Shown: positions 2,855 to 63,032, counted from the first letter of the whole stretch. The stretch is DNA of 63,032 nt, filler included, from Stramenopiles sp. TOSAG23-6 (GCA_900128565.1; 12 parts of 12 records of this genome joined end to end with filler, not necessarily neighbours in it), one strand, 5' to 3'. A program made the numbers and translations. Notes: generated by a model not told the origin, from the letters alone.

Positions 2855-5378
2855 CTATCTACGATGCATATCTCTTTTATATCTTTGATTATTATTATTA
2901 GAATCATATCTTCGATTATTATTATTATTATTAGAATCATATCTTTGATTATTAGAATTAGAATTAGAATTAGAATCATATCTTCGATTATTAGAATTAT
3001 TATTAGAATCATATCTTTGATTATTAGAATTAGAATCATATCTTCGATTATTAGAATTATAATTACGTTTATACTTTGGCCTTTCATATCCATCATCATA
3101 GTTATTACCACGCCTATTACTAAAACGCCGTTGATCATTATACTGATTTCTTGTATACTCTCTTCTAGGTTTAGGGTTATACTCTATTCTGGTTCGTTTT
3201 CTATTAGGGTTGTTAGTGCAATATTGTCCTCTACAATCACCTTTTGAATAAATGCCATAGTAATACTTGGCTGGATTTTTTATATAAGAATTTCGTTGTA
3301 ATTTTGATTTTTCAGCACAATTGTACATTTCTATTTGTTTTAGTGTATAAGATAAATGATGTAATGAGCCCTCATTTTCAATCATTGACGTCCAAGTTTT
3401 TCTATCTTTATATTCCGCATAATATTCTTGACAAAATGATGTATTTTGGAAAAATATTTCAAAATTTTTCTAAAAAAAAAAAAAANTNTTNGGNACAAAA
3501 NTTTTTATAAAAACCAAAAAAAAAAAATCGATTTTTTTTTTTTTAACCGAAAAAAAAAAATAAATAAAATAAAACATACATGGCCATTCAGGTGGATTTG
3601 TCCATACTTTTGAAAATAAGCCGTGTTGAATATCTAATACTAAAGATAATTTTGGAGGGGAACAATCATGTTCACGAATAACAAGAAATCCCCCAGGTCT
3701 TAATACTCTATGAACCTCCTTTAATAAAGATTTAGGTTCTTTGACATGATGTAACGCCATCAACATACATTGTGGAAAAATATTTTTTTTTTTTGATTTT
3801 TTTTTTAGGTTTAGGTACAAAATTTTTATAAAAAAAAATAATAAATTTGAAATTGAAAAAAAATAAACAAACATGGTGACTAAACATATAGAATTCGACT
3901 TATATGCTTCCAGCTGAACTCCATCATATAATTGAAAATTCATCCCCGTAGTTGTAGGAATATCACGTATATCACAACCATGTATATTCTTTGCTTCTAA
4001 ACCAAAATGTTTACCTAGTGGTGCTGTAATTGATCCTTCAGCACATCCTACATCTAAAATGATTTTAGGTGCAAAATCATTTGGTAATAATTTTTTGATT
4101 TCATTAATTCGTCGCGTATATCTCCAACTCTCTGCTTCTCCAGATGCAGCAACACGATGTTTCATCGCTTTATGTTCTTCGGAGTGCATTACCCCATGAG
4201 GTACACCGTGCAATAGGTCAGCTAATTTTTGATAAATGACGTCATCATTTTCATCATTTATAATCAAATTTTGTAGTAACTTTGATACTTTTGATTGACC
4301 TTTAGGACATTGATATAATGCAGCGCTGTTAGTGACTATTTGCAGTAAACGAATACCTAGATCATTTTTTTGAATGACGTCTTGTTTTAAAGCAACAAAT
4401 TGTCGTAAACTTTTGACAAGAGGTATGTTAGGGTTAGGGTTTTCTGACGGTTGTTTTGTGATTTTTGTCTCTGNTTCNTCNTTTTTTNGNTTTTNTTGTN
4501 TTTTCTGTATTAACAGGGTGAATAAGAGCAAAAACAACAGTATTTTTATCTTTTTGATCTTTTTGATCTTTTAGTATTGGCATGATGTCAACGACGGTTC
4601 CATTTTCAAAGAAAGTATTATCAGGTAGGGTTAGGGTTTTCATCGATTGTAGAGATTTTCCTGAAACTTCATTATTTGTTTTAGTCAAAGAATTTAGAAC
4701 GGATCTTGTAGCACGAATCACTATCATTGGACAACCAATGGAAGTAGAACGTAATAGTTCATTTAGCAACTTACATAGTGATGATGATCCATTTTTCAAT
4801 TTTGTATCAATTTGGTACGGTGAAAATTCTTTTTGTTGAGGATTTGAACAATAAACACACTGTCGAACAATCTGTAAAAAGTCAATGAAAATGAGTGATC
4901 CATAAGGAAATATACCATCATGATAATTCTGAGCTAATTTTTGAGTAAGAACAGATGTTATAGTTTCAACAGTTGGTGCATCAATTGGATTTGCAGGTTT
5001 TGTTTCTACATTAAAAACTCGAAGTCCATGAGAAGAAATTTTTTGACATTGCGACAAACGGATATTTTCATCTAACTTGTTTAAACAATCTGCATGCCAC
5101 TCACATGAATGTATTCTACGGAAGCCACCAAATTTCGTTCCTACGTTTGTCTCCGCATCGCTCGAGACATTTGCAAAAGCGAAAGCTGAGACTCCTTTAC
5201 TTAGTGATACATCAACAAGAACTCGTACTGCACCACTTGTTGAATAACTAGTTGGAGGGAAATGCTTATCTCGGATATGCAATGTCCATGATGCAATAGC
5301 AGATGCGTCAGCAGCAGTGATTGCATCACCATCTAGTGATGACACTTCTATGGTCTTCAACATGGGTGCAGAAGCCAT
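2855..5378 (-). CDS. Class I SAM-dependent methyltransferase with N-terminal extension and Asn/Arg-rich tail; 2 introns
   Basis: ILDVGCAEG motif I and VHRVLRPGGFLVIREHD. Removing 3765-3872 and 3439-3579 joins the ORFs in frame. The frame break near 4470-4500 coincides with Ns. Confidence 0.8.
2890..3065 (-). repeat. Coding low-complexity repeat (NNRRYDS/NNQRYDS)
   Basis: Repeated ttagaatcatatct units encoding RYDSN(S)NN. Confidence 0.85.
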
Positions 5379-5677
5379 CTCTCTCTCACACACACAATAT
5401 TATATTGTTATATATACGTATGGAGTTGTCGTTCGTTGACCCAAATTAAAATGCACCAAAATGAAATGACCCAAAATGATACAGTACACGAAATCCTGAA
5501 GAAACTGTTAAAATAACTTCTACGAGGAACCCAATGTCGGTTAACAAATTGTTTTGCACTTGTAAACACACAGTCGTGCAGTCGTGCCAACTGAAGTTGA
5601 AAATTAAATATTTACTACAAATAACTTTTTGAGTTGAAGTTCCTCTGTCACAAATTGCCTCCACTACAACTACAACA

Positions 5678-7027
5678 ATGAAACAGATTCTTTTTGCTTG
5701 TATCATGTTGAGCTTATTTGTAAGTGCCTCTTGTGCTACTACTAGCCTTAGTAGCCTAAAGAGAAGAAGAGGAGAACAAGACCAAGAAGACCAAGAAAAA
5801 CGGCGAAGAGAAAGGAAAAAAGCCTTGAGACTACAAAGGAACCGAGCAAGTGCTTTGAAGTCACGGAAAAAGAGGATCCAAACGATTGCGAAACTCGACA
5901 CATTATATGAACGTAAAATTGGTATAATGCAAAGCCTTAGCCAAACATTTAACCTTGAACTGCGACGACTGCAACAGCAACAACAAGTAAGTTTACATTT
6001 ATCATCTCCTCGTTTGTTACAAGGTTTCAAGGTTCTGGAAAGGTGTCAAGGTAATACTCGTGGTCGTGTTCGTGGCTTGAGCCTTCGCAAATATATCTTC
6101 CCAATTACACAAGAAGAGCAGGACGCAATGAACAAAATAAAGAAGACATATGAAATGAAAGATGAGAGAAGAAGGAAAGAGTTGTGTAAATTTAGCGCTT
6201 TACGCTCAAGGAAGTACCTGCCAAAACTTGAACAAGAGATTTTGCGGCTGAACAAGATCATTGAGGCCCAAAAAAAGGATATTCAGGATATTCAGGATGC
6301 TCTTTCAACAAGTATGACACATCGAATGCCTTTGCTAGCTCGTGAGATAAATGGACAGGCTCCTACACATCAACATTCAGCACCAGTAGTAGTAGGTTCA
6401 TTACTACCAATGCCAATGCCAAATCCAAGTGCTGAAGGTTTTGTTCTTCTGCCACCACCGACACCATCTCTACCGGCACCACCGTTAAATGAAGCAAATG
6501 AAGGTCGAGAAAATAAGAGTTTCGCATCCCAAGGACTATATATACATAGTCCGGATGAGCTCGAAAAAACCATGACTGGGTTTGTCAATTTGGGTACATT
6601 TTCACAAACAACACAGGGATTAGATGCGCCCTACGAAGCTACTGTACGTCCAGGAAGTCCTGGAAGTCCATATGATCCACTACCTCCTTCTCCTCCAGCA
6701 TCCCCACGGGTCCAACCACCACCACCACCAATACAACCAGTTTTATTTGACTTGATCATGAGCGGCAATGTTGTTGGAGTGAGGCGAGAGCTAGAATTTA
6801 ACGGCGCAGATCCAAATGCAGTAACATTTCATGATAACAAGAGCGCTTTAATGACAGCTGCAGCAACTGGAAATAAAGAAATATGTCTTTTATTGCTTGT
6901 GAAAGGAGCCAGAATGTTGGACAGAGATATCTTTGGTAAAACGGCTTTCGATTATGCAAAGGACAAGAGACTACGCCAAGCATTGATTAAACTTGCGAAA
7001 GGTAGTAATCTTTTAGCACTTGCTTAG
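5678..7027 (+). CDS. bZIP-like basic region + Pro-rich linker + ankyrin repeat protein, with a signal-peptide-like N-terminus
   Basis: RLQRNRASALKSRKKR basic region, a second degenerate copy (KFSALRSRK), and ankyrin motifs GADPN...SALMTAA and DIFGKTAFDYA. Confidence 0.75.
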   Translation: MKQILFACIMLSLFVSASCATTSLSSLKRRRGEQDQEDQEKRRRERKKALRLQRNRASALKSRKKRIQTIAKLDTLYERKIGIMQSLSQTFNLELRRLQQQQQVSLHLSSPRLLQGFKVLERCQGNTRGRVRGLSLRKYIFPITQEEQDAMNKIKKTYEMKDERRRKELCKFSALRSRKYLPKLEQEILRLNKIIEAQKKDIQDIQDALSTSMTHRMPLLAREINGQAPTHQHSAPVVVGSLLPMPMPNPSAEGFVLLPPPTPSLPAPPLNEANEGRENKSFASQGLYIHSPDELEKTMTGFVNLGTFSQTTQGLDAPYEATVRPGSPGSPYDPLPPSPPASPRVQPPPPPIQPVLFDLIMSGNVVGVRRELEFNGADPNAVTFHDNKSALMTAAATGNKEICLLLLVKGARMLDRDIFGKTAFDYAKDKRLRQALIKLAKGSNLLALA

Positions 7028-7051
7028 AAATCTGAGATATGTGCGAAGGCT

Positions 7052-7241: not shown

Positions 7242-7335
7242 TCCAAAAACACAACGCATGTATTGCATTCATGATGTAAGCATTAATTTGGAAAAAAAAC
7301 ATCAATCTAATAAAATGTACTTGTAAAAAAAATTG

Positions 7336-7397: not shown

Positions 7398-8096
7398 GTA
7401 AGCCAAAATCCGATCCAATCTTTGCAATGTCTCGTCCAAGCTCACGCCACGTTTCGGCTTCAAATATAGGAATTGTAGCCCCGTTATCATTTTCAAAACC
7501 TCCTTGTAACATACCATTCTCCCAGCGCAAGGGCTTCATTCGTTTTTCTGTTTTTTCTGGTTTTTCTGTTTTTTCTGTTTTTTCTGCTATATTCATCATC
7601 TCTGACATTGAGCGACCATTTATTTTGGAAAAATATTTCAAAATAAAATCGTTAGGTACAAAATTTCGTACGAAAAATAAATTCGATTTTTTTGTTAAAA
7701 AAAAATAAAACATATATTTGTACCTAGAAGAAATAAACGCGCGGCTTCAGCTTTAATGAGGGCATCTCGTGCGGCCTTGTTTGCAACAGACGATGCAACT
7801 TTTGCCGAATAATTTTGAATTTGTTTTTTATTTTTTTTATTTTCGGACTCTTTTGATTCATTATCAACTTCATTTTTGGTTTTGTTTGGGGTTAGAGTTT
7901 TTTCTTCATTATTTTCTTGATTGAAATTGTTTGACAATAAAGAAAAAACTGGGTTTGGTATTGCTTTGATGTCAACATCATCATGATAATGATGAATGTC
8001 TCGTTTTGATGACCAACCTCCTCGTAGCTTTCCACTTTCCCGTCGCAAAGGTTCAATAGTAACTTTTTCACTAGTAACTTTTTCACTAGAAGATTT
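7336..8096 (-). CDS. Hypothetical protein, 3' part; intron 7618-7715
   Basis: Two ORFs join in frame (LLGTN|GRSMSEM) after removing a family intron. Confidence 0.6.
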
Positions 8097-8196: not shown

Positions 8197-8283
8197 TTTA
8201 TTTTTTTTCAATTTCGAATTTATTTTTCGTACGAAATTTTGTACCTAACGAATATTTTTTCGAAATATTTTTCCAAAATACAT

Positions 8284-10169
8284 GCTATAATCTAAATGGA
8301 ACAGCTTCGTTGAGGGGAACTCCTTATTGGATGGCTCCGGAAATGATTCGCCAAAGTGGACATGTAGGTTTTCATCATTTCATCATTTGAATTTTACATT
8401 TCGTTTTTCTTTTTTCCCCAAATTGAAAGGTTTCATATACCCAACGAGTTTTTATTAACAAATTTCGAAATCGACATATTGTTTTATATTACATGGAAGG
8501 CAATCAGATATTTGGAGTGTAGGTTGTACAGTGATTGAAATGTTAACTGGAAAACCTCCTTGGCATAGTAGTGGTTTCACATCACAAGTTGCAGCTTTGT
8601 TCCATATAGCTTCATCTAAAACCTCACCGCCACTTCCTGAAGATTTGTCTGAAGTAGCTATATCTTTTCTAAAGTCTTGCCTTCAAATTGAACCACTCAA
8701 GAGACCTACAGCAATATCTCTCTTAGACTGTAGTTTTGTGGTTACTAGTGGTGCAACTAGAGCAGGTAACTCTGAAAATGTCAAACGTAGAAACAGTCCA
8801 CATTTAACTAGTAGTAATAAAAGTTTTGAAAGTTCGGTGCAGCATGAAAAAGAAGATAGAAATCTATTTACGACCCTTCCAAATGTATCATTGCCAAGTA
8901 ATTTATTAGTAGACAATGACAATGTAGTATCTAGTAGTCAAAATAGAACAATGAAAACAACATCTAATAGTCAAAATAAAAATACGCAAAAGACCGACTT
9001 ATTACTTCCAATAGGCCTCAAGTTTAATAAAGATAAAGCTCGAAAACAACAACAACGACAGATACAACAAATAAAAAAAGATAAGCTGCAGAGAGTTGAA
9101 GATGAGTGGCAAGGAGCTACAGATGAACGGGAGGACGACCATACTCCATCCATTCTCACATCACCAGAATTGTCACCAATAATCACAAGAAATAAAGCAA
9201 TAGAACAACGAGGCAGAGGTACATTTGCTGCATCCCCTATAGACAAGAAGAAGTCAGAATTTTCGAATAGTATTGAAGATAGAAGTATTTCTGGGGCAAA
9301 ATTTATTGAACCATTGTCAATGCGGATCAATCGAGCTCGTGGCGGACGAGGACCACCACGCGTTACTCTTCCAATAGCGAACTCTTCTTCTTCAAATGTA
9401 GTAAAATCGCATATAGCATCATTGGGCAAAAAAACACACACAACATTCTTACCAAAAGTAAAAAAATCTTACAGTCCAAATGACATTCGACGAAATAAAC
9501 AATGGGGTCGACGATCCAAGAAAATTACAAATACCTCGGATATCACAGATGACACGTCATCAGAATCTATGAACAGTTCTTCAACAATTGTCGTACAATC
9601 CATTTCACCAGGATCTCCTAATATTGGTGTACTATCATCAGATTCGTCAAATGAAATTCGCGATCCACGTACGTTTTCATTTTTTTTTTGCCTATTTTTT
9701 TTTCGTACGAAATTTTGTACCTAATAACAAAAATCTTGTAATATTTTTTCACAATACATGATCTCCTTTAAAAAGATTCTTCTTCTGGGGAAAGTCTCCT
9801 CGGAGCCCTGAAGCTCAAGGAATTGGTGCTAATGATTCCACCGACAAAAAGTCACGTGTTAAAAATGTAGATTTTATTGGAGATAGAGGTCATCGAAATT
9901 CAGAAGAAGGTACTTTATTGGGTGATAAAAAGATTGAAATTGTTGCGAAAAGTCCTATAGTTGAAACAAAAGAAATTGCGGAAGGAGTTGTCGGGCCCGG
10001 GATGATTACCTCCGATAAAGGCGGCAAGTCCCCCAAGGTTGTTAAGAAGAACGCAAATACAGAAGAAAATCTTTCTCTTACAAAAGGTATCAAACAAAAT
10101 AAAGTAGCAAAGGAGTCAGCAACAGACGTTGGATTTGAAGAGTTCGATGATGTAAACGCATACATTTGA
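8284..10169 (+). CDS. STE11/NPK1-type MAP3K, 5' truncated; introns 8364-8494 and 9669-9759
   Basis: Spliced sequence gives LRGTPYWMAPEMIRQSGH|GRQSDIWSVGCTVIEMLTGKPPW. Confidence 0.9.
8364..8494 (+). mobile_element. Diverged GT-AT intron in the MAP3K
   Basis: cat|GTAGG...TTACAT|gga agg gives SGHGRQSDIW; the nearest downstream AG is out of frame. Confidence 0.88.
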
Positions 10170-23932: not shown

Positions 23933-23973
23933 ATTTATATGAGATTTTATCTATATTTCAAAACTAGTATACA

Positions 23974-40701: not shown

Positions 40702-40957
40702 ATGTATTTTGGAAAAATATTTCAAAAAAAAAAACTAAAAAAAATTGTTAGGTACAAAATTTCCTATAAAAAAAAAATTCATAAAAAAAAAAAAAAAANN
40801 NNNNNNNNNNNNNNNNNNNNNNNNNNNNNNNNNNNNNNNNNNTTAATTAATTAANNNNNNNNNNNNNNNNNNNNNNNNNNNNNNNNNNNNNNNNNNNNCG
40901 AAATTTTGTACCTAACAATTTTTTTAGATTTTTTTGAAATATTTTTCCAAAATACAT

Positions 40958-41333
40958 TCAACATTAAATCGTGGAAACCAAATGAATCTGAAGTTAGAGA
41001 AAGTACGTTTTCATCATTTAAAAAAAAAAAAAAAATATTTCGTACGAAATTTTGTACCTAACAATTTTTTTTTTTTTAAATATTTTTCACTATACTTCTC
41101 TTGAACAACGATTACACCAACATGAAGACAAAGGTGTAGTGTCTGGCGATGAAAATGTTGAAATTGAGCAAATTGAAAAAGTTGTGCAAGAAAGTATTAC
41201 TAAAAGTTTTGGTTCCAATGGTCAATATTGGAAAGATTTAGGTATAGAAGAAGAGAAAACACGAAATCAAGTTGCTGATTCGATTTTTGCTTCTCTTATA
41301 GACGATGTGGTGAAAAATCTTCAATTGAAATAA
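40958..41333 (+). CDS. C-terminal exons of a DUF4378-like protein
   Basis: WKDLGIEEEKTRNQVADSIFASLIDDVV pattern. Confidence 0.5.
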
Positions 41334-41380: not shown

Positions 41381-42184
41381 TTATCTTGTTTTTATAGCCA
41401 TTTCACTAATAGTAGACACATCACCTCGAGTAGTAAAACTTATGTTAGAGTTATTAGGGTTAATATCAGGCACATCACCTCGAGTAGTAAAACTTATGTT
41501 AGAGTTATTAGGGTTAGGGTTAATATCAGACACATCACCTCGAGTAAAACTTAGAACGAATCCCCAAATAGTCCCACATGTAATTTTGGGAAAATATTTC
41601 AAAAAAAAAATCAAAATTTGTTAGGTACAAAATTTCGTACGAAAAAAAAATAGGTAAAAAAATCATGATGAAAACGTACCCGCACTTAAAAAGGGTATAC
41701 GATATCTAATTGGAATGAATCGAAAATTGATGAAATGAAGAGGCACAAAAATAAGAAAACAATTTCTTACATCCAACATGACATTTTCCAGATATCTATT
41801 TTTTGCAAGCTGTATTTGTTGACTTATTTTAGAGAAAAACACAGGCGGAGTAGCAACTACCATTTGTTGTACTATATAGTATAAAGGTAAATAAACAGAC
41901 GGTGTTTGCACAAGGACATCAAAAACAGCAGTTGCCAATGGGCCCTGCTTTGCCCATGGGTATAACTTTGTGTATACAAAATGTCCAGGTCCACCACCAT
42001 ACAGTGCACCAAATAAACCAAAAATCAACAACCGGGTGTAACAAAACTTTTTATCAGGATCTTTACGAGTTTGATAAAATTGTACTATTCCGTCACCAAT
42101 TAAATACCGACCAGACATTGAAGCGGCGGACGTAATCACTCGATGACGCCCCGCAAAGCGATGTAAACGTGAGAAAAGATACAT
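41381..42184 (-). CDS. Mpv17/PMP22-family membrane protein; intron 41578-41679; tandem-repeat C-terminal tail
   Basis: GDGIVQ, FINFRFIPIRYRIPFLSA|GGTIWGFVLS. Confidence 0.85.
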
Positions 42185-46251: not shown

Positions 46252-48436
46252 ATGGCAAAAAAACGTCCACTTTGGTTACGTAACCCATTTGTGCGATGTA
46301 TGCTTCGCATTTCGATTTTCATTGGTGTAGCAGTTTCTTTAGCTACCGTTTTTTACGAAATACATGTATTACACAACAAGAATTCAACAAACTATTCCTC
46401 AAAATGGAGTCTAAAACAAGAAGTTATTGATATTAAAGGGTCTCTGAATATTCGTCTGGCATCCATCTCGAGTTCCGCTCTTGATGGTCGACTACTTGAA
46501 ACACTTAAATCTTTATTTGAGACTGCTGGTTATGGCATAGTTAAATCGAGTACATCCAATAAAGACGGAAAGCATTTTTTTATAACTATGCAAGCTCTTT
46601 GTAATCCATATATAAATGAAAGTTTTGAAATGTCGAAGGAAAATGAAAGCTATAATGGTTTATTCCTCTTATGGTCGAGTCCTTTGCAGCATGCGGAGCT
46701 GAATATGTTCACATCACCAAAGACGAGTTTTAATGATTGGATTTCCAATTCAAGTCATTCGTGGAAAAACATCCTATATAGTTTATTTTTTTCTCGAAGA
46801 ATGCAATCTGGTTTAGAAACTTCTTTACCTTCTTTTTTTGAGCAAAATATTTTGAGAGAAAAATTGAAATTTTTCAAGGCATTTTCTATAGAAGACTTTA
46901 TTCATGCATCAGATAAGACTATGAATACGATATTAGATGAAGCAATTACATTACGTCAGTTGTGGTCTATGACTACCACACATTGTCCTAACCCTCATAA
47001 TATGTACAATCAATCGGAAGGAGCAAAAACAAAATGGAGGAAAACACAGAATCAGTGGGGAAAAGTCAAGATTATGATCCAGCCATTACTGCCATTAATG
47101 AACGAATTTATTCAACCAGAGAAAGATTTAGTCTCCACTCAGTCGAAATTGTTAGTTAAATATATACAGGATGGGAATGTAAGTAATATTTTAAAAATCC
47201 TAAACATAGATGAAAAACACGAAAAAAAACAGAGAAAACACAAAAAAGAGGCAATAATTAGTATACTAACAAGTAATAACGTAGGTTACATAGCAGGTGT
47301 CCTAGTGCTTGGGTCTTCATTCAGAACATTTCATTCAGATATGGCAATGATTTTACTAGTAACAAGTGACGTCACCATGTGCGTTTTCATTATATTTTTT
47401 TTACCTAATTTGTTTTTCGTAGAAATTCCAATTGTAGTAACAAAACTTCAAACCTACAAGCCTAACCTTTTTTTTTACTCAAAAAATATTTTTTCACAAT
47501 ATAAAACTCCGTTACAACAACTTGCTTTGGAAAACGTTGGTTGGTTGTTACGCAACGTAAAAAAAATAAAANAACCTTGGTGGGGTGGTAATGGTTGCAA
47601 TAGTTCATTTATGAATCATGATATAAGATGGGGCAGAATGATGAGTAAGTTGCATTCTTGGAATATAGTAGAATTTGACAGATTACTATATGTTGACGCA
47701 GATGTTGTATTCACCGGCCATTCTGGAATATTATTTCAGTATCCCCGTAAGCAATTAATATACATAACAAATGTTAAACAAAAAACGTATATTGCAGGGA
47801 TAACTGGGTTTGAAAAACCACGTAAAGGTTTGCATCATTTGAACGCTGGTATGTACGTTACTCTAGGGTTAGGGTTCATTTTCATTTTTTTTCTTTTTAT
47901 AGAAAATTTTGAACCTAATAATTTTTTTTTTCGTAAAAAAAAATATTTTTTCACAAAACATTATTCTATTGGAGCCTAATCAAAAAACATTTAATAATTT
48001 GATGAAATTGAGATTAGATATCCGGCCAGAAATATTTCATAATGAAATTGACTGTACTGAGCAAGCATTACTTAATAAATACTTTTATAGACCTGATATG
48101 ACAGTTACTAGTTATCCTATAGATCCAGGTTGCCCTGCAGTATTATTACCCGATGCTGGTCGAGTGAGTGATTTATACAACTGGTACGAAAGTTCGTATG
48201 AAAAACAATTAAATCCCACAAACGAAAGCAATTCAACACATATAAAACTGCCAGTAGTAATGCATTGGGTAAACTGTAATAAACCTTGGGGAGATATAGT
48301 AAATATAGAAGCAAATCAAAGAATGAAATATGAATGTGACACACAGATGAATAATTATTGGCAGCGGATATTTAGAAGACTGCGTTTAGATGATAATTTG
48401 TTTTCGCTTACATATCATCAGATATCTCTTGAATAA
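46252..48436 (+). CDS. Type II membrane GT8 (glycogenin-like) glycosyltransferase; introns 47379-47504 and 47853-47961
   Basis: YIAGVLVLGSS, MSKLHSWNIVEFDRLLYVDAD (DxD), LNAGI|ILLEPN, TEQALLN. Confidence 0.85.
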
Positions 48437-49113
48437 TCGAGTATCATCAAGGCACGTCCTGGAAAAGTAGCCGGTTTCAGGGTTGTAAAGTAAAGTACCG
48501 TATTTCGTGATAAAGTACTTGACTACGAAGTCTAGTACTTGAGTTGCCAACTTTATTAGTATAGTTTGTAGTTCAGTACTTGAGTTGCCAACTTAAGTAG
48601 TATACTATTCATATATAGTAATGTATTTTGGATGTAATATACTACACTTCATACTACACTGTTGGACATCAGATTAAAATACTTTACATAATAAAATAAG
48701 TACTGTATATGACAGTAGTAAAATACTCTACTATTAACACAAGTACTGAACTTTGCACATATCTATTTATTTTCAATACTACAATACAATACCTGGAATG
48801 TAGAATAATCTCACTATTCGGTTAATTCACGATACTTTTTAGAAAATCCAGTGTGTTTGACTTTGACTAGTGTACCACTATCATATAGCAATATGCATGT
48901 GTTGCTGAAGAAGGGTAGAATGCACATTAATGAATACCAACAATNNNNNNNNNNNNNNNNNNNNNNNNNNNNNNNNNNNNNNNNNNNNTTAATTAATTAA
49001 NNNNNNNNNNNNNNNNNNNNNNNNNNNNNNNNNNNNNNNNNNNNTATAATTTTTTTTCGTACGAAATTTTGTACCTAATGAAAAGACAACTTAAATATTT
49101 TTTTATAATACAT

Positions 49114-49579: not shown

Positions 49580-52196
49580 CTAATTTTTTTTTTCAAAGTA
49601 TTTTTGATGAACTGGTTGAATCAAACAATTACACACAAATGCGAGTGAAATAAATCCAACAGATGAATACATTGTCGTATTGTAAAGTGTTCCTGTCGGG
49701 TCAAGTGTTCCTTCAGGCACAATTTCCATTAGTCTTGATATTGTAACTGTATTTGTATCACATAAAATATCAAATTCTTCACCACCAAAACGCACTTCAG
49801 GTGATACTCCAAATGATGTCGAAAACAGCGTAGGGTCGGAAATTTTAGCTAAGTTATGAAGAGCCGAGATTTTTGCTTCTTTGTGCAAAAAAGTCAATAA
49901 TAAAGGTGAAGAAAATGATGCAGCCGCACCTGCAGCTAACAATGTGTATAATATGCAAATTATAAAACAAATAAATAAACGGGAAGTTGTATAAAATATT
50001 GTAGTATTGATTGTATACTATATATAGATAATACCATCACCCTGCCATGTATTGAAGCTAAATATTTTGTACCAAAGAGATCAGCCAAGTATGCCGGAAG
50101 TATTCCATAACACCCACCGTAGAATGAAACGATCAAACTTGTTCCTGCTGTAAATGACCCGATCAACATCCACTGGGAGAGATTCGTATTTGACATTGAT
50201 GCATATAATGTAATTGAAGGCAAAACCATGTATTGTGAAAAATATATAAATATATATATTTTTTTAGTAAAAAACATTTTGTACAATTTACGTTTTACGA
50301 AAAAAAAAAAAAATATTTTAAAATAATAATAATAATTGATGAAAACATACAAACAAATAGGAACACCAAAACCAAATAATAATGATGTATTTTTACGACC
50401 GAAAATATCTGAAGTGAGTGGCCATCCAATGCGACCAAATAAATTTGCAATACCCAAGGCTGCTACATAGGATGCAGAAAACTGTGAATCAACAATGTCA
50501 GGCATATGTGTTCCAAAGATGTATTTTGGAAAAATATTTCAAAAAAAAAAAAAACTAAAATTTGTTAGGTACAGAATTTCGTACGAAAAATAAATTCAAA
50601 ATTGAAAAAAAAAAATAAAACATACATATCCGTCATTATATTCTTCGCGGCAGAAAGAAGGCCTACACCTGCCATACACTGGGCATAAAGACCCACAAGA
50701 AAAAGGTAAAATTGTGGTGTCCGTTGACTATTTGCTAATGTGACATCATTTTCTACTTCATTTTGTTTTGTATTTTTTATATTTTTTGTATTTTTTGTTT
50801 CTATATTTTTTATATTTTTTGTATTTTGATAGAGATTTGTACTAATAATCCCAACTTTCTCTGGTGTCCAACCCTCCTTGGGTATTCGAATCGTCAATGC
50901 ACCCATAGTAATAGCTAGAGTATATGTATTGTGAAAATAGTTTAAAACATTTCAAATTCGTTAGGTACACAATTTCGTACGAAAAACAAATTTATGTAAA
51001 ATATTCAACTTTGAAGACATACATATACCTGATAACGTTAAGAGCGTCATAGCTACACCTGAATTCCCGGTACCAACAGCATATACACCCGCATCTGCTG
51101 AAAACGGTAACATCGCAACGTCATTTGCCGTAGCAACGACAACTTCGACAAATTTGTTTGTTTCACCTGAAACATCATTCAGAAATAATTTTCCATCAAT
51201 AGTAACTATTTTTTCTCCTACTGTATGAAGATCACCAAAATATTCAGGAATCTTTGAGAATCTTTTTAGTAATGTATTTTGGGAAAATATTTTCATTTTT
51301 TTTTGTTAGATACAAAATTTCGTACGAAAAATAAATGAATTTAAAATTGATCCTGAAAACATACATGTTTCATAGAGAGGGGCTCCTAAAATAGCACCAA
51401 AGGCAAAACCGCTAACACTCACTGTAGAAACACGAAATATTAGTCGTTGTGAAAGTATAAGTGAAAACATTTTCAAATCATTCGAAAAAGAAATATTGAA
51501 GTAGAAAGAAATATCTAATCATTCGAAAAAGAAATATTGAAGTAGAAAGAAATATCTAATACCACCTGCAGCCATTCCTCGTTTATCGGGAAACCAGCGA
51601 ACTAAGCAAGCAATAGGTGCCAGGTATCCGAATGCTAAGCCCATTCCACCAAGTGCACCATAACCCAAATATAGTAAAGAAAGTTGATGACACATAACCC
51701 CAATACCACTGACAAAGAAGCCACCTCCCCAGAGTGAAGCTGATAGAAGTCCAATAGTTCGAGGACCATATTTATCGATTAAAGTACCAATGAATGGTAC
51801 TGTTATCGCCATAAATGCCGCAGTAGTTGAAAATATAGGCATGACAGAAGATAAATCCCAGTCTGAAGCAGAAGATACTACAACACCAAGCTCTTTCGTT
51901 AATGGGGAGTTAAAAAGAGACCACGCATAAAACCCACCACAGCTACCACCAATGGCAAGAGAACCGGGAACAGATAACCATCGATTATATCCATCTTTAG
52001 CAATGATATTTTCCTTTGATATTATACTTAAAAGATAACCTTTCCTTCCCGATGGAACTTGTTTTGGACTTTCAGTACCGGTAGTGTTGCTATTATGACG
52101 AGGTAAACATAATGTAACCGAAGGCTTTGCATTACACCGTTGAAATAACTGTGTTGCAGTGGCCCTATTGTTGTTTAACAAAATTCGAGCAAGCAT
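49580..52196 (-). CDS. MFS transporter, oxalate:formate antiporter (OFA)-like; 6 introns
   Basis: YAWSLFNSPL, DKYGPR, WFPDKRGMAAG, LPAYLADLFG, IHGR. Confidence 0.9.
51422..51562 (-). other. Conventional GT-AG intron unrelated to the repeat family, with a 41-nt internal duplication
   Basis: GTATTAG...CTACAG; splicing gives RGMAAGVSVSGFAFGA. Confidence 0.75.
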
Positions 52197-55239: not shown

Positions 55240-57082
55240 TTATTTTTGTTTATCTTCCAAAGGATCTCCAAATGGCTCCCACTGAAATCTACTAGGAAAA
55301 TACTTTCTTTCAATTTCATCATGTAATGGCTTCTTAATCTCATTTGGATCACTTTCTTCACCGCTACTTTCACCGCTACTTTCATCACTACTTTCATCGG
55401 ATAATACTCTACGATGGTATAAAAAAGAATGATCTGGTATTCCATATAATCCACCATATTTTGCATTCAATAGTCGACGTCTTCGATCCTGTTTTGCTTT
55501 TTTACGATGCCGTTTCGCTTCGCTTTCAGCAAGGATTACAGTTTCTCCATAATCATATTGTCTTCTTGATGATTCATCACCGAGTATTTTATATGCATTT
55601 GCAACTTGTTGAAATGCAACAGTAGATCCTCCCTGTTTATCAGGATGCACAGAGCGACTGGCTTTTCTATCTGTATTGTGTGAAAAAATACAAAAACAAA
55701 AATGATTGTTTTGTTAGGTATACAAAAATACAAAAATAAAAATAAAATGATGTTTTTGTTTCGTATACAAAATGTAGTAGGAAAACATTAATATACTTGA
55801 AATGTATGATGAAAACAAACATGTATTTTGGAAAAATATTTCAAAAAAAAAAACTAAAAATCGTTAGGNNNNNNNNNNNNNNNNNNNNNNNNNNNNNNNN
55901 NNNNNNNNNNNNNNNNNNNNNNNNNNNNNNNNNNNNNNNNNNNNNNNNNNNNNNNNNNNNNNNGTCCTTTGTAAAGTCCAACGATACGCCAAGAACAATG
56001 TATAAATTGATAGATTTCCATCTTTTTTCATTTTTTTCATTTTCTTCACTATTCTGGGATATATTCTTCTCAAAGACATGTTCTACAGAATTTTTACCAT
56101 CCTCATCAACATTAGTTTCATCATCTACATTTTCTTGAACATCAATATTTTTTTCATTTTCTTGGGCATCAATATTTATTTTCTCATCTTCTTGAACATC
56201 AACAAAACTGTCAATGTCATCGAAATTGTCAATTGCTCCAACTTTTTGATTATTTTCTGGAGGTATACCCTGACATTTGTTTTTGTTATTGAGGTTTAAC
56301 ATTTTTTCTTCGTCTTTATCACATAAAATTTTCATTTTCTTTTTCCAAGTAGACGTCAAAATCCATAATTTTTCGCGTCGAAAGTGAGCATGTGCCCTAA
56401 ACAATAAAGAATCAATTCCCTCAGAATGTCTATTCAGTCGAAGGACTCGTTCAAATGAAAGTATTGCTTCTTCATAATGATTATCACCCAAATCCATATA
56501 CACCTTTCCGAGTTCTAAATGAGCATCTTTATAGCAAGGAAAATGTCTTAATATTACCATTAATGTTTGTCTACTCTTTTCAAGTTCTCTACTTTTTCGT
56601 TGACATTTTGCTAATTGCAATTGATAATAAGCAAGTTTCCACTTGGATATACGGATTGCATGTATTTTGGAAAAATATTTCAAAAAAAAATCTAAAAAAA
56701 AATGTTAGGTACAAAATTTCGTACGAAAAAAAAATTGTAGACTAAAAATTGAAAAAAAATTAAAACATACATATTCGTCTCTCCATGAATCAAGCCATGA
56801 TGATGATCCTTTTTTTTGTAGAGAAAGAATAATTTCTTGGTACATGGCAGAGGCTTTCAACCAGGAACACGAATTCTGTGCAGTTTTGGCCTCCTCCACT
56901 TTGGGTGAAAGTGAAACCTCGTCTTCCACCAAAGATTCTTGCGGTGGTGTTTTTTCTTCATTGTGACAATCAAAACTACCTTTTATTTCAGCCAATCCAT
57001 GAGACATGTTTGCAGCACGACATTCATCAACAACATTAACAATATCACAATTATAAAACAAATGAATAAACATCAATGATAT
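55240..57082 (-). CDS. TPR + DnaJ-domain protein (5' truncated); introns 56660-56770, 55821-gap, 55671-55820
   Basis: TPR (AHLELGKVY...EEAILSFERVL) and J-domain NLYIVLGV...RKASRSVHPDKQGG...AYKIL. Confidence 0.85.
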
Positions 57083-57238
57083 NNNNNNNNNNNNNNNNNN
57101 NNNNNNNNNNNNNNNNNNNNNNNNNNTTAATTAATTAANNNNNNNNNNNNNNNNNNNNNNNNNNNNNNNNNNNNNNNNNNNNATTTTGTACCTAACAAAT
57201 TTAAGTTTTTTTTTTTGAAATATTTTTCCAAAATACAT

Positions 57239-58149
57239 GATGGTCAGAAGAATAGTTTTATATCAAGAGCTTTTGAAGGTAAATATGATTCAAGTGTAGC
57301 AATAGAGTTTACACCAAAAAATGTACAATTTGCATTTTTACGTTTTATAGTAACTCAAATTATGGATTTTGAATCATTTGTGACGGTAAGAAAAGATATG
57401 AAAAGTGGAAATGTTCCTTTTTTAAATGAAGAAGCGTTTTTAGATACAGTTCCAGATGATAGTAAAGTTTTTGTACAAAATATGATATGTACACAAATGT
57501 TTGAATCATTTCTTCGGGATCATGCGGCCGGTTCAGTAGAAGCAAAATTCTTTTCAGAATCAATATTAGCAAAACGAAATCGATCCGTGACTGTACGAAA
57601 AAAATATAAGACACCGTTTTTAAATGATACTTCACTTTTGATTCAAGAAACATTTGTTACTCCAGGAGTTAATCCACGAGGCCTTGACAAAAATGTATTT
57701 ACATATCCAGATATGGTACGACATCAACGATTTCCATCACTTGATTCTTCATGTACATTTTCAAAATTAAATTAAAGTTTTTTTTTTTTTTTTCATACGA
57801 AATTTTGTACCTAAGCAAAAAAAAATTAGAAAAAAAAAAAATATTTTTTCACAACACATTATTTGGTGATCCACGACCTGCCAAATGGTTAATTAAAAAT
57901 CCTGAGATTTCACGAACTTCAAACAGAGGTGTATTTGATTTTCTTGATGCACAAAATGCAGCACTTGCACTCGAAGGGGCTAACCCTAACCCTAACCCTA
58001 CTCAAAAAAGTTCACTATCACCATCAAAATTAATTATGTCAAATGACGAGGGGCTGATGAGTAATATAAAATCTTCAGATGTGTTGCTACAACTAGATGC
58101 TGAGAAATTTACAAGATTTCTAAAACATGTTGTACTTGTTCAATCTCGT
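57239..58149 (+). CDS. DENN-domain (Rab GEF) protein fragment; intron 57753-57859
   Basis: FLNEEAFL, TQMFESFL, FFSESILAKRNR, FPSLDSS|LFGDPRP. Confidence 0.75.
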
Positions 58150-58214
58150 GTAGGTTTTTTTTTTTTAATTTTTTTTTTCGTAGTAAATTTTGTACCTAAA
58201 CAAAAAAACAAAAC

Positions 58215-58252
<38 letters not shown>

Positions 58253-58373
58253 AAAAAAAAAAAAAAAAAATTTNNNNNNNNNNNNNNNNNNNNNNNNNNN
58301 NNNNNNNNNNNNNNNNNTTAATTAATTAANNNNNNNNNNNNNNNNNNNNNNNNNNNNNNNNNNNNNNNNNNNN

Positions 58374-59463: not shown

Positions 59464-59611
59464 NNNNNNNNNNNNNNNNNNNNNNNNNNNNNNNNNNNNN
59501 NNNNNNNTTAATTAATTAANNNNNNNNNNNNNNNNNNNNNNNNNNNNNNNNNNNNNNNNNNNNACCTAACGAGTTTTTTACAAAAAAAAAACATATTTTT
59601 TCACAATACAT

Positions 59612-59931: not shown

Positions 59932-60653
<722 letters not shown>

Positions 60654-60753: not shown

Positions 60754-61843
60754 CGATATCTGTTGTGGACTTTATTACTTGGTTTAGTCATTTTAGTCCA
60801 CATTATTGTCGTTCTGGGATTCGCCCTTTCCCATAAAGAAACTGTTGGTGATATTACGCATGTCACTGTCAGTGGTCTTATATCAATATCTGTAGTTTTT
60901 TTCATGCGAATATTCAATCTCATTCTATTTCGTTTTCGTAGTAAAAATGAAACAGAACAATGGACGGAACTACATGAAACACTTGCATGGAGAGGATTTC
61001 AAACAGGTGATTTACTCCTCGCAGGATCTGCAGTGGATATTATATCTTTCTGTAGTCAATATCATGTACGTTTTATTTTTTTTTCAATTTCGATTTTTTT
61101 TCGTACGAAAGTTTGTACCTAACGAATTTTTTTTTAAGACTTAGAAGACGTCATAGAAAGTGGTTCCTTCTACATACGAATATGGATACAGTAAATGTTT
61201 TAGTAAAGGCAGTCATTCAGAGTATTTCAGATGAAGAATTAAATAAAATTGAAGAGGAAAGTTCCAATCATTGGGAGACAGATGCTTTAGCTTTACTAAA
61301 GCCATTTATAAAGTATAATAACAAAGGAGTAGAAGTTGGAGAACCAATCGAAATATTATCTGCTATAAAAGCACATGCAATGAAGTATCCAATGCATGTT
61401 CCTGCATCGGAAACCGGTTGCTATGTACTAGAAGCTATAGCAAATGGTACAAGAATTTTGACACTGAGACACTTTATGCATATTTGGTNNNNNNNNNNNN
61501 NNNNNNNNNNNNNNNNNNNNNNNNNNNNNNNNNNNNNNNNNNNNNNNNNNNNNNNNNNNNNNNNNGGATGCCATACCCAAGCCTTTGTGCTGTGGTTGTT
61601 GCAGGTTTCAGAATTTCGAGAAGAAATAAGAAACTTATCCGAGGTTCTTATCTTTGTTCAGCTGTTGTTGGCGCAATTTTTCAAAGATTAGGTATTTTAA
61701 GCGATGAAGTTTCTCCAGATAATTTTATGCCTGCTGATTTTGCTGATGAAAGTTCGCACCTGAGTGTCAATACATACCTACTTCGTTCTTGGCTATTTGG
61801 AAGGATTGTCTATATCGGCAAAAGTGGAGATGATACAAAGGAG
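60754..61843 (+). CDS. Multi-pass membrane protein fragment; intron ~61066-61154
   Basis: TM-rich ORFs join in frame across a family intron. Confidence 0.5.
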
Positions 61844-61943
61844 NNNNNNNNNNNNNNNNNNNNNNNNNNNNNNNNNNNNNNNNNNNNTTAATTAATTAAN
61901 NNNNNNNNNNNNNNNNNNNNNNNNNNNNNNNNNNNNNNNNNNN

Positions 61944-62989
61944 GATGTTTTTGATTCACTTGTAGTTAGGATCATCGATGACTTTTTTGTTTGTAATACT
62001 CTCTTACGACCAAGTTCAGCAGCTAACATTGCACCAGCACATTTGGTACTTTCACATGTCGACTGTACACTTTGCATTGCAATTTCATAAATTAAAGTCG
62101 AAGTTTTACCACCTAATATAGACGCAACTTCTGCTATAGCACTAATAGAATCTAAAAACTTTACAAATAAAGTCCTGTTATTTGATATATTTGACGAGTT
62201 ATTTAAACCTTGTTCAAAGCTTGATTTAAGCACCTGTGTTGATAAATCAAACATTGATTGCATTAGAGGAGAACATATTGTATGCATTGTTTCAAATAAT
62301 AATAATGACTTTGTCGACAAATCTGTAGTCATTGTCATTTCACAATTATTATTATGTTTTTTTTTCTTTTGTTTTTTTGGCTTTGTTTCATTGATTGTAC
62401 CATAAGAATCGTATTCGTGTTTCGCCCAATGACAAAAATTAGACAAAGCAAGATTCCACGTGTTTTGGAAAAATATTTCAAATTTTTTTTTGTTAGGTAC
62501 AAAATTCCGTACGAAANNNNTAAATTCGAAATTGAAAAAAAAATAAAACGTACACGTTTGTTTTGAGAGTTTTGCAACTTGGTCATTGCTATCATACAAA
62601 ATTCTCATAAATAATGTAGTTAAAATGGGATTTAATAAATTATATGCCAACCAACTTTTAGAATTGACAACATCTGATAAAAGGACATGTAGAGTTGTTA
62701 CAGCAGATAGCCGAACTTGATATAAAGGTTCATTTTCAGAGAGTAAAGCCCATAATGAAGGAACTCTTGAAACTAAACTAAAACTGTATTTATGTAGATT
62801 CTTTCTTTTTCGCTTCTTTGAATTATTTGAATTATTTGAATTTGTATTGCATTGTACTCCAAACGAATTCTGAATATCTTCACAATTTCTCATTATTCCA
62901 ATATTGACACATTTCAAAGTATGAATTTTTGCAATTAGACATGATAAAGATGCTTTTGCAGGTGAAAGTGGATGGACTAGAGGTAAAGC
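61944..62989 (-). CDS. Mot1/BTAF1-like HEAT-region fragment; intron 62458-62553
   Basis: LVSRVPSLWALL...VRLSAVTTL resembles the Mot1 LVPRLWPFL...VRxAxLxTL segment. Confidence 0.55.
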
Positions 62990-63032
62990 ATATAGTATGA
63001 AAAAATATTTCAAAAAAAATTCTAAAAAATTT

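What the first reader, a model, noticed from the sequence alone, without database searches (positions are those of the whole stretch)
3439..63032. The introns are one transposon-like (introner) family with short terminal inverted repeats and an AT target duplication
Seen: ~45-50 related copies in unrelated genes. The ends AT-GTAT(G)TTTT and AAAATAC-AT are reverse complements. The upstream exon ends in AT in about 26 of 36 cases, so the structure is AT|GTAT...ATAC|AT. Some copies have longer flank identities that include deviant termini: ATGCA at 35206, ATGTT at 3872, AAAT at 7715 and ACGTG at 62553. Established: introners in algae are MITE-like elements that take a splice site from their target-site duplication. 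Inference: an element that duplicates AT supplies its own non-canonical acceptor, and splicing removes the element plus one AT, so insertion is scarless. No transposase is present in this window.
Basis: partly seen in the sequence, partly recalled or inferred. Interest (0 to 1): 0.88.

Follow-up and report, generated by a model that had tools for sequence, protein, structure and literature searches.

The report
Copied introns ending in AT
Nearly all introns in these genes of an uncultured marine protist are copies of one ~100-base element that appears to be cut out at an unusual GT...AT boundary, which shows introns spreading by copying and explains why a public gene model here is wrong.

Summary
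An iterated nhmmer search gave 44 hits. With hand curation I count 34 complete and 11 partial family-type introns, all sense to their host genes, plus one unrelated GT-AG intron. Removing GT...AT restores one open frame in 8 of 8 multi-intron genes (27 introns); 106 of 108 one- or two-base shifts break it. Pfam profiles and homologues run straight across six junctions.

The upstream exon ends in AT in 24 of 34 introns against 3.35 expected. 28 of 34 introns end in AT.

An introner family with scarless removal is well supported. The terminal inverted repeat is only 4 perfect bases. AT as a target duplication cannot be told from AT carried by the element: locus-specific matching is weak (p 0.017), and two to three copies contradict a strict AT duplication. 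No copy is intergenic or antisense. No RNA junction was seen. No transposase was found in the ten intronless ORFs scanned. A public gene model mis-splices one of these introns. Verdict: a new variant of a known kind.

The parts
3765..3872 (-). family-type intron, AT|GTTTGT...GTAT|G
3439..3579 (-). family intron, AT|GTATGT...ACAT|C
7618..7715 (-). family intron with A at the first base: AT|ATATGT...AAAT|G
8197..8283 (+). 3' part of a copy, cut by a contig start, ends ACAT|G
8364..8494 (+). divergent intron with the same ends, AT|GTAGGT...ACAT|G
   Evidence: Pkinase profile 173 then 176 across it
9669..9759 (+). family intron after AC: AC|GTACGT...ACAT|G; an ancestral AT here would make a TGA stop
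25174..25287 (+). divergent family-type intron, AT|GTTTGT...AAAT|G
25424..25564 (+). family-type intron, AT|GTATGT...ACAT|A
   Evidence: homologue P0123 residues 46|47 are contiguous across it
25927..26023 (+). family intron after GT: GT|GTATGT...ACAT|A
26410..26695 (+). long composite intron, AT|GTACGT...ATAT|G, holds a telomere-like motif and an internal duplication
   Evidence: AAA_12 profile 176|178; P0122 residues 101|102
30304..30536 (+). family-like intron with a canonical end, GT|GTACGT...TTAG|T
32493..32642 (+). 5' part of a copy (GG|GTATGT) with a second core in tandem, cut by a contig end
32743..32806 (-). 5' part of a copy (TT|GTATGT), cut by a contig end
34308..34409 (+). family intron, AT|GTATGT...ACAT|G
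   Evidence: a 2024 metagenome contig crosses its 5' junction
35206..35312 (+). family intron with a GC start, AT|GCATGT...ATAT|G
   Evidence: homologue P0132 is contiguous across it
35438..35540 (+). family intron, AT|GTATGT...GCAT|A
36448..36552 (+). family intron that splits the kinase motif HRD|VKPANIL
   Evidence: Pkinase profile 123|124; a 35-residue gap in the tblastn alignments of P0125-P0131, P0133, P0136 and P0138
36756..36847 (+). family intron with a canonical end after a Trp codon: TG|GTATGT...ATAG|G
   Evidence: DVW|SFG contiguous in P0129
37548..37640 (+). family intron, AT|GTATGT...ACAT|T
39779..39882 (-). family intron with a GA start, AT|GAACGT...ATAT|G
39510..39604 (-). family intron after TA: TA|GTATGT...ATAT|G
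40702..40798 (-). 3' part of a copy, cut by a contig end, ends ACAT|G
40899..40957 (+). 3' part of a copy, cut by a contig start, ends ACAT|T
41003..41093 (+). family intron after AA; the acceptor CTAT|A was chosen by frame and is not certain
41578..41679 (-). family intron after GG: GG|GTACGT...ACAT|G
43357..43455 (+). family intron with a canonical end, AC|GTACGT...GTAG|C
43810..43916 (+). family intron, AT|GTATGT...ACAT|C
43977..44147 (+). composite intron with two core blocks, AT|GTATAT...TCAT|A
44367..44461 (+). family intron whose last base is G: AT|GTATGT...ACAG|A
47379..47504 (+). family intron with no in-frame AT or AG end; acceptor unresolved
47853..47961 (+). family intron holding a telomere-like motif, AT|GTACGT...ACAT|T
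49045..49113 (+). 3' part of a copy, cut by a contig start, ends ACAT|G
51422..51562 (-). the one non-family intron, canonical: TG|GTATTA...ACAG|T, with an internal tandem duplication
51272..51364 (-). family intron, AT|GTATGT...ACAT|T
50924..51022 (-). family intron, AT|GTATGT...ACAT|A
50519..50625 (-). family intron, AT|GTATGT...ACAT|C
50228..50350 (-). divergent intron after TT: TT|GTATGT...ACAT|G
55671..55868 (-). two copies head to tail in one intron: the first is cut by a gap and ends ACAT, the second runs GTTTGT...ACAG
56660..56770 (-). family intron, AT|GTATGT...ACAT|G
57183..57238 (+). 3' part of a copy, cut by a contig start, ends ACAT|G
57753..57859 (+). family intron, AT|GTACAT...ACAT|T
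58150..58273 (+). 5' part of a copy (GT|GTAGGT), cut by a contig end
59049..59146 (+). family intron, AT|GTATGT...ACAT|C
59564..59611 (+). 3' part of a copy, cut by a contig start, ends ACAT|G
   Evidence: family D2 row
61066..61144 (+). copy lacking its 3' block, ended by a nearby AAG or TAG
62458..62553 (-). family intron where both the exon end and the intron end are GT: GT|GTACGT...ACGT|G

Best explanation
WHAT IT IS. This is an introner family: a mobile element of about 100 bases that becomes an intron wherever it lands in a transcribed exon in the sense direction.

SHOWN
- Each copy brings a donor of the form GTNNGT, usually GTATGTTTT.
- Each copy brings a 22-base core, CGTACGAAATTTTGTACCTAAC, which holds a CTAAC branch-site-like motif 40-50 bases before the 3' end.
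- Each copy brings a conserved 3' block, AAATATTTTTCCAAAATACAT.
- Removing the stretch from GT to the final AT restores the host reading frame and the host's conserved protein motifs exactly.
- The copies sit after an exonic AT far more often than chance, in a C-AT-G context.

INFERRED
- The major (U2-type) spliceosome of this organism removes them and accepts AT, and sometimes other pairs, as the last two intron bases.
- Spread is at the DNA level by a small non-autonomous transposon with ends GTAT...ATAC. It duplicates a two-base target, mostly AT, and the 3' copy serves as the acceptor. Element plus one AT then leaves the mRNA unchanged.

ODDS. I give about 0.8 to the introner with GT...AT removal. 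I give about 0.45-0.5 to the AT target-duplication step. The stated confidence is for the whole chain.
For: - FAMILY: 44 nhmmer hits. A 17-base core word occurs 26 times against 0 expected. Pairs reach 92% and 88% identity. The alignment shows conserved blocks.
- SCARLESS REMOVAL: 8 of 8 multi-intron genes (27 introns) are stop-free after removal, and 106 of 108 shifts of one acceptor break the frame.
- PROFILE CONTINUITY: Pkinase runs 123|124 across 36448 and 173 to 176 across 8364. AAA_12 runs 176|178 across 26410.
- HOMOLOGUE CONTINUITY: homologues are continuous across 25424, 26410, 35206, 36448 and 36756.
- FLANKS: upstream AT in 24 of 34 against 3.35 expected. C at -3 in 15 of 34 against 5.5 expected. 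G at +1 in 16 of 34 against 7.6 expected.
- COUPLING OF THE TWO ENDS: upstream AT goes with a 3' AT (22 of 28 against 2 of 6, Fisher p 0.048). The within-locus dinucleotide match is 23 against 19.9 expected, p 0.017. Copy 62553 has GT at both places.
- REAL DNA: 2024 seawater metagenome contigs cross the same exon-element junctions. Summed contig depth over the element-bearing bins is about a thousand times that of the exon-only bins; the tool warns that this depth is not a copy number.
- NOT SHARED WITH A RELATIVE: P0131 is one 812-residue ORF on a 15,963-base contig, with no introns at the aligned places.
- PRECEDENTS: target-derived splice sites in Micromonas and Fritillaria (review passages). 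A TA-flanked transposon proposal in Physarum (passages).
Against: - NO RNA PROOF. No RNA read or contig joining two exons was seen. One RNA contig runs from the exon into intron 35206 and another lies within it and runs on into the next exon. Splicing at AT therefore rests on reading frames and homology only.
- NON-AT EXON ENDS. Six of 28 AT-ending introns follow non-AT exon ends.
- COUNTER-EXAMPLES. At 9669 an ancestral AT would give a TGA stop. At 36756 the exon end is the Trp of DVWSFG and the intron ends in AG.
- NO NEIGHBOURING MATCH. There is no locus-specific match at neighbouring positions.
- WEAK INVERTED REPEAT. It is only 4 perfect bases, and variant ends do not co-vary.
- DISTRIBUTION. 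No copy is intergenic or antisense, against about 12 expected under even, strand-blind insertion. That fits an RNA-level or transcription-linked route at least as well.
- NO AGE TREND. Upstream AT is as frequent in copies that barely match the family model as in the best-matching ones. That is not what a decaying insertion scar predicts.
- NO PARTNER. No transposase partner was seen.
- RECALLED, NOT TESTED. I know of no transposon superfamily with a fixed AT duplication.
Confidence: 0.5

Rival explanations
1. It is the same introner family, but the element is GT...AT and carries both splice sites. It inserts without any target duplication. Either the excised intron RNA is reverse-spliced into other transcripts, copied back and recombined, or a DNA route without duplication is used. 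The exonic AT (C-AT-G) is then a site preference, or a filter for efficient splicing after insertion.
For: - All of about 45 copies are genic and sense, with 0 intergenic or antisense against about 12 expected.
- Element ends coincide exactly with intron ends.
- AT-ending copies follow AC, GT, GG, TT, AA and TA exon ends.
- At 9669 the upstream AT is impossible.
- Upstream AT does not fade in divergent copies.
- The inverted repeat is too short to count.
- Fungal introner-like elements without duplications or inverted repeats have been read this way (Gozashti 2022 passage).
Against: - An upstream AT frequency of 71% is very high for a mere preference.
- Upstream AT is linked to a 3' AT, and 62553 has GT at both places.
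- The site consensus C-AT-G is palindromic and the tips GTAT...ATAC are palindromic. Both suggest a symmetric DNA-level enzyme.
- Copies lie nested or in tandem inside introns.
Confidence: 0.35
2. The introns are not copies of a mobile element. They look alike because this organism's splicing machinery demands long, fixed signals, so old introns have converged on one consensus.
For: - Conservation falls in three blocks (5' end, branch-site block, 3' block) separated by variable T or A runs.
- Introns that barely match the family model still have AT|GT...AT.
Against: - Blocks of 22 and 21 bases are far longer than any known splice signal.
- Sub-family motifs lie between the blocks.
- Pairs in unrelated genes reach 88% identity.
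- Several large genes have no intron at all, while one kinase gene has six.
- One ordinary GT-AG intron without the blocks is present in a spliced frame.
- A relative has none of these introns.
Confidence: 0.05
3. The family is removed by a minor (U12-like) spliceosome, which is known to tolerate odd last bases. The 3' block would then act as a nearby branch site. This concerns the splicing machinery and could hold together with either route of spread.
For: - GT-AT and AT-AT are among the commonest odd boundary pairs of U12-type introns in Physarum (passage read).
- One copy starts with A (7715).
- The last two bases vary: AT, AG, GT and perhaps AA.
- The donor is conserved out to position 9.
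Against: - The donor is GTNNGT, with G at +5 in 32 of 34, and positions +3 and +4 vary. It is not RTATCCTT.
- The CTAAC motif lies 40-50 bases from the 3' end, not 10-15.
- No snRNA gene was found in the window to test this.
Confidence: 0.1

Closest known systems
Introner elements of Micromonas pusilla and Aureococcus anophagefferens (review PMC11282704, passages; Gozashti et al. 2022, PMC9860276, passages)
   Same: Many near-identical short introns sit in unrelated genes, sense to the gene and enriched in genes. The element supplies one splice site, and the other is proposed to come from the duplicated target. Removal leaves the mRNA unchanged.
   Different: - Those introns end in AG; here 28 of 34 end in AT.
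- Their duplications are 3 bases or more and vary from locus to locus, so they can be proven. Here the pair is the same nearly everywhere, so it cannot.
- The inverted repeat here is only 4 perfect bases.
Non-canonical MITE-derived introns of the tunicate Fritillaria borealis (Henriet et al. 2019, seen only through the review's passages)
   Same: Most introns are non-canonical and lineage-specific. An exonic repeat before the intron (TAC there, AT here) reappears as the 3' end of the intron. The spliceosome must have adapted.
   Different: - The boundaries there are AG-AC and AG-AT, with a non-GT donor. Here the donor is a normal GTATGT and only the acceptor is odd.
- That host is an animal; this one is a stramenopile-like protist.
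- RNA evidence exists there and not here.
U12-type intron expansion in Physarum polycephalum (bioRxiv 10.1101/2020.10.12.336362, passages)
   Same: Thousands of new introns are proposed to come from a transposon with short inverted ends and a two-base (TA) duplication. GT-AT boundaries occur. The standard annotation had discarded non-GY-AG introns.
   Different: Those are minor-spliceosome introns, with an RTATCTT donor and a branch site 9-12 bases from the end. Here the donor is GTNNGT and the branch-like motif lies far upstream.
Fungal introner-like elements (as described in Gozashti et al. 2022, passage)
   Same: There is no provable duplication or inverted repeat. The bias to genes is strong. 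Spread by reverse splicing has been proposed.
   Different: As I recall them, those introns have canonical boundaries and no marked flanking dinucleotide. Here the AT flank is found in 71% of introns.
Introners of Amoebophrya and Polarella (review passages)
   Same: There are many non-canonical, repeated introns with signs of transposon origin in a marine protist.
   Different: Those have variable 3-5 base duplications and many families. Here there is one dominant family with one fixed pair.

Membership tests
Introner (intron-generating mobile element) | Many introns in unrelated genes share sequence over their whole length | tested here: met
   44 nhmmer hits. 26 core words against 0 expected. 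88% identity between genes on different contigs. The hosts are unrelated by Pfam.
Introner (intron-generating mobile element) | Element ends coincide with intron ends, and removal leaves the coding sequence intact | tested here: met
   8 of 8 genes are open after removal, and 106 of 108 shifts break the frame. Profiles and homologues are continuous across six junctions. There is no RNA evidence.
Introner (intron-generating mobile element) | Intron positions are recent, that is, not shared with relatives or polymorphic | tested here: inconclusive
   Homologue P0131 is one ORF on a 15,963-base contig, without introns at the aligned places. It is distant, at about 27-36% identity in the aligned pieces. 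Contigs from the 2024 metagenome populations cross the 34308 and 35206 junctions and begin or end inside introns 36756 and 37548. No empty site was seen, and the joint table was cut at 15 of 262 rows.
MITE-like DNA transposon | Target-site duplication that matches within a locus but differs between loci | tested here: inconclusive
   The dinucleotide match is 23 against 19.9 expected, p 0.017. There is one GT/GT locus, no signal at other positions, and six mismatching loci. This is the ambiguous class of Gozashti et al..
MITE-like DNA transposon | Terminal inverted repeats (6 bases or more, by the criterion read) | tested here: inconclusive
   4 perfect bases in 14 of 35. 7 bases with a one-base bulge in 12 of 35. 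There is no co-variation in the GTAC variants.
MITE-like DNA transposon | Copies in both orientations and outside genes; an autonomous partner with the same ends | tested here: not met
   Within this window there are 0 antisense or intergenic copies against about 12 expected. No transposase domain was found in 10 intronless ORFs. The whole genome could not be searched.
U12-type (minor) intron | Donor RTATCCTT and a branch site 10-15 bases before the 3' end (consensus recalled; the Physarum form was read) | tested here: not met
   The donor is GTNNGT, with G at +5 in 32 of 34. CTAAC lies 40-50 bases upstream.
U2-type AT-AC intron | The intron starts with AT and ends with AC | tested here: inconclusive
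   For the 22 loci with AT on both sides, the AT...AC register gives the same mRNA. At 9669 that register creates a TGA stop, so GT...AT is favoured there (reading of the sequence).

The most novel reading that the evidence does not exclude
An uncultured marine stramenopile-like protist splices most of its introns at GT...AT with an otherwise ordinary major-type donor and branch site. The cause would be a single introner whose two-base AT target duplication became the acceptor and forced the spliceosome to accept T as the last intron base. Gene models built on GT-AG rules for this organism, and probably its relatives, would then be wrong wherever an intron occurs.
Probability: 0.4. Interest if true: 0.8.

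Novelty: new variant of a known kind. Interest (0 to 1): 0.7.

Why it matters
INTRON ORIGINS. The window shows intron gain by copying at high density: about 45 family-type introns and one intron of another kind. That bears on the open question of where introns come from.

SPLICING CHEMISTRY. If the AT acceptor is confirmed, it would be a major-type spliceosome that routinely ends introns in T. That is a useful natural test of how the 3' splice site is chosen.

ANNOTATION. The one public model I could check (P0121) forces a different splice. It loses the conserved helicase motif NVAFTR and adds 12 residues of intron. Functional catalogues built from such single-cell and metagenome assemblies may be distorted in every intron-bearing gene.

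PRIOR REPORTS. My searches and the passages read turned up no report of this family or of GT-AT introns in marine stramenopiles. Papers outside the library and all supplementary tables were not seen. The introner family lists of Gozashti et al. are in such tables.

Tried and rejected
- WHOLE GENOME: none is held, so no genome-wide count and no search for an autonomous copy.
The poly-A run covered too little to judge. Depth ratios are not copy numbers.
- PUBLIC DNA COLLECTIONS: a 22-base core word gave 0 viral contigs and 0 genome contigs. The 17-base word gave 64 metagenome loci, but only 4 gave even a weak, partial nhmmer match (E 2e-4 to 1e-3) and none holds a recognisable element. The 21-base 3' block gave 3 bacterial or metagenome records, which I take to be chance matches and did not examine.
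- PROTEIN SEARCHES: the 67-residue kinase exon found no longer relative. The representative search found no near-identical protein; the best was 48%.
- PDB: searches with the two exons around 25927 did not reach the junction. The choice between acceptors there rests on a recalled R3H motif.
- RNA STRUCTURE: none is conserved. The best fold is 6 pairs at -3.8 kcal/mol with no compensatory change.
- RFAM: 0 matches.
- LOCAL HOPPING: same-gene copies are slightly more alike (0.648 against 0.601), permutation p 0.058, not significant.
- AGE TREND: upstream AT against family score, Mann-Whitney p 0.19.
- AUTOMATIC ACCEPTOR SEARCH: a search by open frame alone failed, because the T-rich element is open in some frames.

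Full report
WHAT THE WINDOW IS

The 63,032 bases are not one locus. They are twelve small contigs joined by 100-base linkers of N with a stop-codon spacer. Seven are about 8 kb and five about 1.1 kb. G+C is about 32%. No whole genome is held.

The genes are eukaryotic. An intronless methionine synthase reductase ORF is closest to labyrinthulomycete proteins, at about 50% identity over its best local stretch. One public protein that is 100% identical to part of the window carries the source name GSMAST32.ASY1.ANO1.2790.1. The host is therefore a marine stramenopile-like protist known from an environmental assembly.

The same DNA is held by small 2015 runs labelled with one organism and by 2024 seawater metagenomes.

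THE OBSERVATION

A profile built from eight clear copies and iterated with nhmmer gave 44 hits:
- 39 hits lie in 38 introns.
- 4 are weak matches inside exons.
- 1 is the self-hit of a central palindrome.

Reading the sequence around every donor-like motif and every break between open frames added eight introns with the same ends. It also found a single unrelated intron with canonical GT-AG ends, at 51562-51422 on the minus strand.

I end with 34 complete and 11 partial family-type introns. The partial ones are cut by contig ends, as expected if assemblies break at a repeat.

Every copy lies in the sense direction of its host gene.

An alignment of 28 copies shows three conserved blocks separated by unstable T or A runs and some sub-family motifs:
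- the donor GTATGTTTT;
- the core CGTACGAAATTTTGTACCTAAC;
- the 3' block AAATATTTTTCCAAAATACAT.

A 17-base core word occurs 26 times with at most one mismatch, against none in shuffles. The best pair is 92% identical within one gene, and the next is 88% between genes on different contigs. This is far more than splice signals plus poly-T.

THEY ARE INTRONS, AND THEIR REMOVAL IS EXACT

With the curated boundaries, all eight multi-intron genes (27 introns) read as one stop-free frame over 774 to 3,121 spliced bases. Moving any single acceptor by one or two bases puts stops in every frame in 106 of 108 trials.

Independent of frame:
- The Pkinase profile runs 123|124 across intron 36448-36552, restoring HRD|VKPANIL.
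- The Pkinase profile runs from 173 to 176 across the divergent intron 8364-8494, with the two unaligned end residues filling 174 and 175.
- The AAA_12 profile runs 176|178 across 26410-26695, with one split codon.

Homologues laid on the window by tblastn are continuous across 25424, 26410, 35206, 36448 and 36756. In the alignments of P0125-P0131, P0133, P0136 and P0138 the intron at 36448 appears as a 35-residue gap.

The same insertions are present in the 2024 metagenome contigs, which cross the exon-element junctions at 34308 and 35206 and begin or end inside introns 36756 and 37548. They are therefore not amplification or assembly artefacts.

WHAT IS MISSING IS RNA

Of the two RNA runs laid, one has a contig that runs from the exon into intron 35206 and another that lies within that intron and runs on into the next exon. 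The poly-A run barely covers the organism. None of the 15 joints displayed, of 262, is an exon-exon joint. Splicing at these boundaries is therefore inferred, not seen.

THE BOUNDARIES

Of the 34 family introns:
- 33 begin with G and 32 have T second. One starts GC, one GA and one AT.
- G at +5 is found in 32, and T at +6 in all 34.
- Positions +3 and +4 vary, which is a major-type GTNNGT donor.
- 28 end in AT, four in AG and one in GT. One (47379) has no in-frame AT or AG at all.

All seven partial copies with a 3' end finish in AT.

Where AT flanks both sides, the registers GT...AT and AT...AC give the same mRNA. At 9669, where the exon ends in AC, the shifted register creates a TGA, so GT...AT is favoured (reading).

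THE FLANKS

The upstream exon ends in AT in 24 of 34, against 3.35 expected from codon-phase-matched coding sequence (p 3e-17). The site is wider than AT:
- C at -3 in 15 of 34 against 5.5 expected.
- G as the first base of the next exon in 16 of 34 against 7.6 expected.

The pre-insertion site therefore reads C-AT-G.

A permutation test, however, shows no excess of within-locus matching at any position other than the pair itself. The one nominal exception at -8 is what 16 tests can give by chance.

IS AT A TARGET DUPLICATION?

This is the crux. The Methods of Gozashti et al. 2022, read, state the problem: when nearly all copies have the same pair on both sides, a duplication cannot be told from an insertion preference.

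In favour of a duplication:
- The within-locus dinucleotide match is 23 against 19.9 expected (p 0.017).
- Upstream AT is linked to a 3' AT (22 of 28 against 2 of 6, p 0.048).
- Locus 62553 has GT at both places.
- The site is palindromic and the element tips are palindromic.

Against it:
- Six AT-ending introns follow AC, GT, GG, TT, AA or TA.
- At 9669 an ancestral AT is excluded by a stop codon.
- At 36756 the exon end is the invariant Trp of DVWSFG, and the intron ends in AG.
- At 25927 the exon end is probably a conserved Ser of an R3H domain. The Pfam match reaches the last residue of that exon; the motif itself is recalled.
- Upstream AT is no rarer in copies that hardly match the family model.
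- The inverted repeat is 4 perfect bases in 14 of 35, or 7 with a bulge in 12 of 35, and the GTAC variants have no matching change at the other end.

DISTRIBUTION

From a hand-drawn gene map based, about 6.6 kb of the window is intergenic. At the exon density of 0.9 sense copies per kb, even and strand-blind insertion predicts about 12 intergenic copies. There are none, and none is antisense.

Several large genes have no intron, while one kinase gene has six. Gene bias is usual for introners (161 of 175 genomes in the passage read). It also fits an RNA-level route.

MECHANISM AND ODDS

I give about 0.8 to the core reading. The element carries its own donor and branch site, is removed from GT to the final AT by a major-type spliceosome that tolerates a non-G last base, and has multiplied through the genes of this lineage.

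On how it spreads:
- About 0.45-0.5 for a small DNA transposon that duplicates a two-base target, mostly AT.
- About 0.35 for an element that carries its own AT and inserts without duplication, reverse splicing included.
- About 0.05 for convergence on long splice signals.

A minor-spliceosome reading (0.1) concerns the machinery only. It is weakened by the donor pattern and by the distance of the CTAAC motif from the 3' end.

COMPARISON WITH WHAT IS KNOWN

- It works like the introners of Micromonas and Aureococcus.
- It is closest in logic to Fritillaria, where an exonic TAC repeat forms the 3' end of non-canonical introns (review passages).
- It also resembles the TA-flanked transposon proposed for Physarum minor introns.
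- It differs in combining an ordinary donor with AT as the dominant acceptor, in one dominant family, in a stramenopile-like host.

My searches found no report of it (passages). Supplementary tables were closed.

The public gene model P0121 reads 12 residues into intron 26410, then joins to a point beyond the conserved NVAFTR motif that homologues P0122-P0124 keep. The non-canonical introns were therefore not recognised in that annotation.

VERDICT

This is a real and striking introner family. It is a new variant of a known kind. The AT acceptor is well supported by frame and homology but unseen in RNA. The transposon details (inverted repeat, AT duplication) are still open.

Noticed in passing
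window 4431, 4628, 20790, 20844, 26425, 30468-31705 (nine sites), 41511, 42537, 47866, 53177, 53393, 53736, 57984-57998: The telomere-like word CCCTAACCC occurs 22 times against 0.06 expected, in both orientations. Many of the sites lie in frame inside long open reading frames, where they read as NPNPN or LGLGLG (ORF translations). In the methionine synthase reductase ORF, the LGLGLG stretch sits in an insertion of about 11 residues that eight homologues lack. These look like lineage-specific in-frame micro-insertions of telomere repeats.
   Followed up: partly
window 26258-26813 (+): The public gene model P0121 (96 residues) reads 12 residues into intron 26410-26695. It then joins past the conserved helicase motif NVAFTR, which homologues keep. 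The annotation forced a different splice.
   Followed up: yes
window 30744-30799 and 31642-31689 (minus-strand matches inside a plus-strand exon); also 30089-30135: These are weak matches to the element core (E 1e-7 to 1e-4) lying inside the coding exon of a WW-domain gene. Two are antisense, and one is bracketed by two telomere-like words about 99 bases apart. They may be exonised fragments or chance.
   Followed up: no
window 51422-51562 (-): This is the only intron without family features. It has canonical GT...AG ends and holds a tandem duplication of about 41 bases.
   Followed up: partly
window 47379-47504 (+): This family intron is 126 bases long and open in frame. No AT or AG acceptor fits the frames fixed by the GT8 domain on both sides. 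The possible ends are TA, AA or AC, or there is a sequence error nearby.
   Followed up: partly
window 1-2485 (-): A secreted-looking protein is built of about 384-405 base repeats at 45% G+C. That is well above the window's 32%, and it has no intron.
   Followed up: no
window 12132-24472: There is a run of large intronless genes with no element copy: a 1,385-residue Cys-rich repeat protein, a polycystin-like channel, and a cyclic-nucleotide-gated channel. Introns are very unevenly spread among genes.
   Followed up: partly
window 4437-4570 and 11723-11768: Neighbouring open frames overlap or shift here without a recognisable intron. The first place is full of single N and is probably a sequence error.
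   Followed up: no
window 7080-7250: There is a short tandem repeat of about 60 bases in an intergenic stretch.
   Followed up: no
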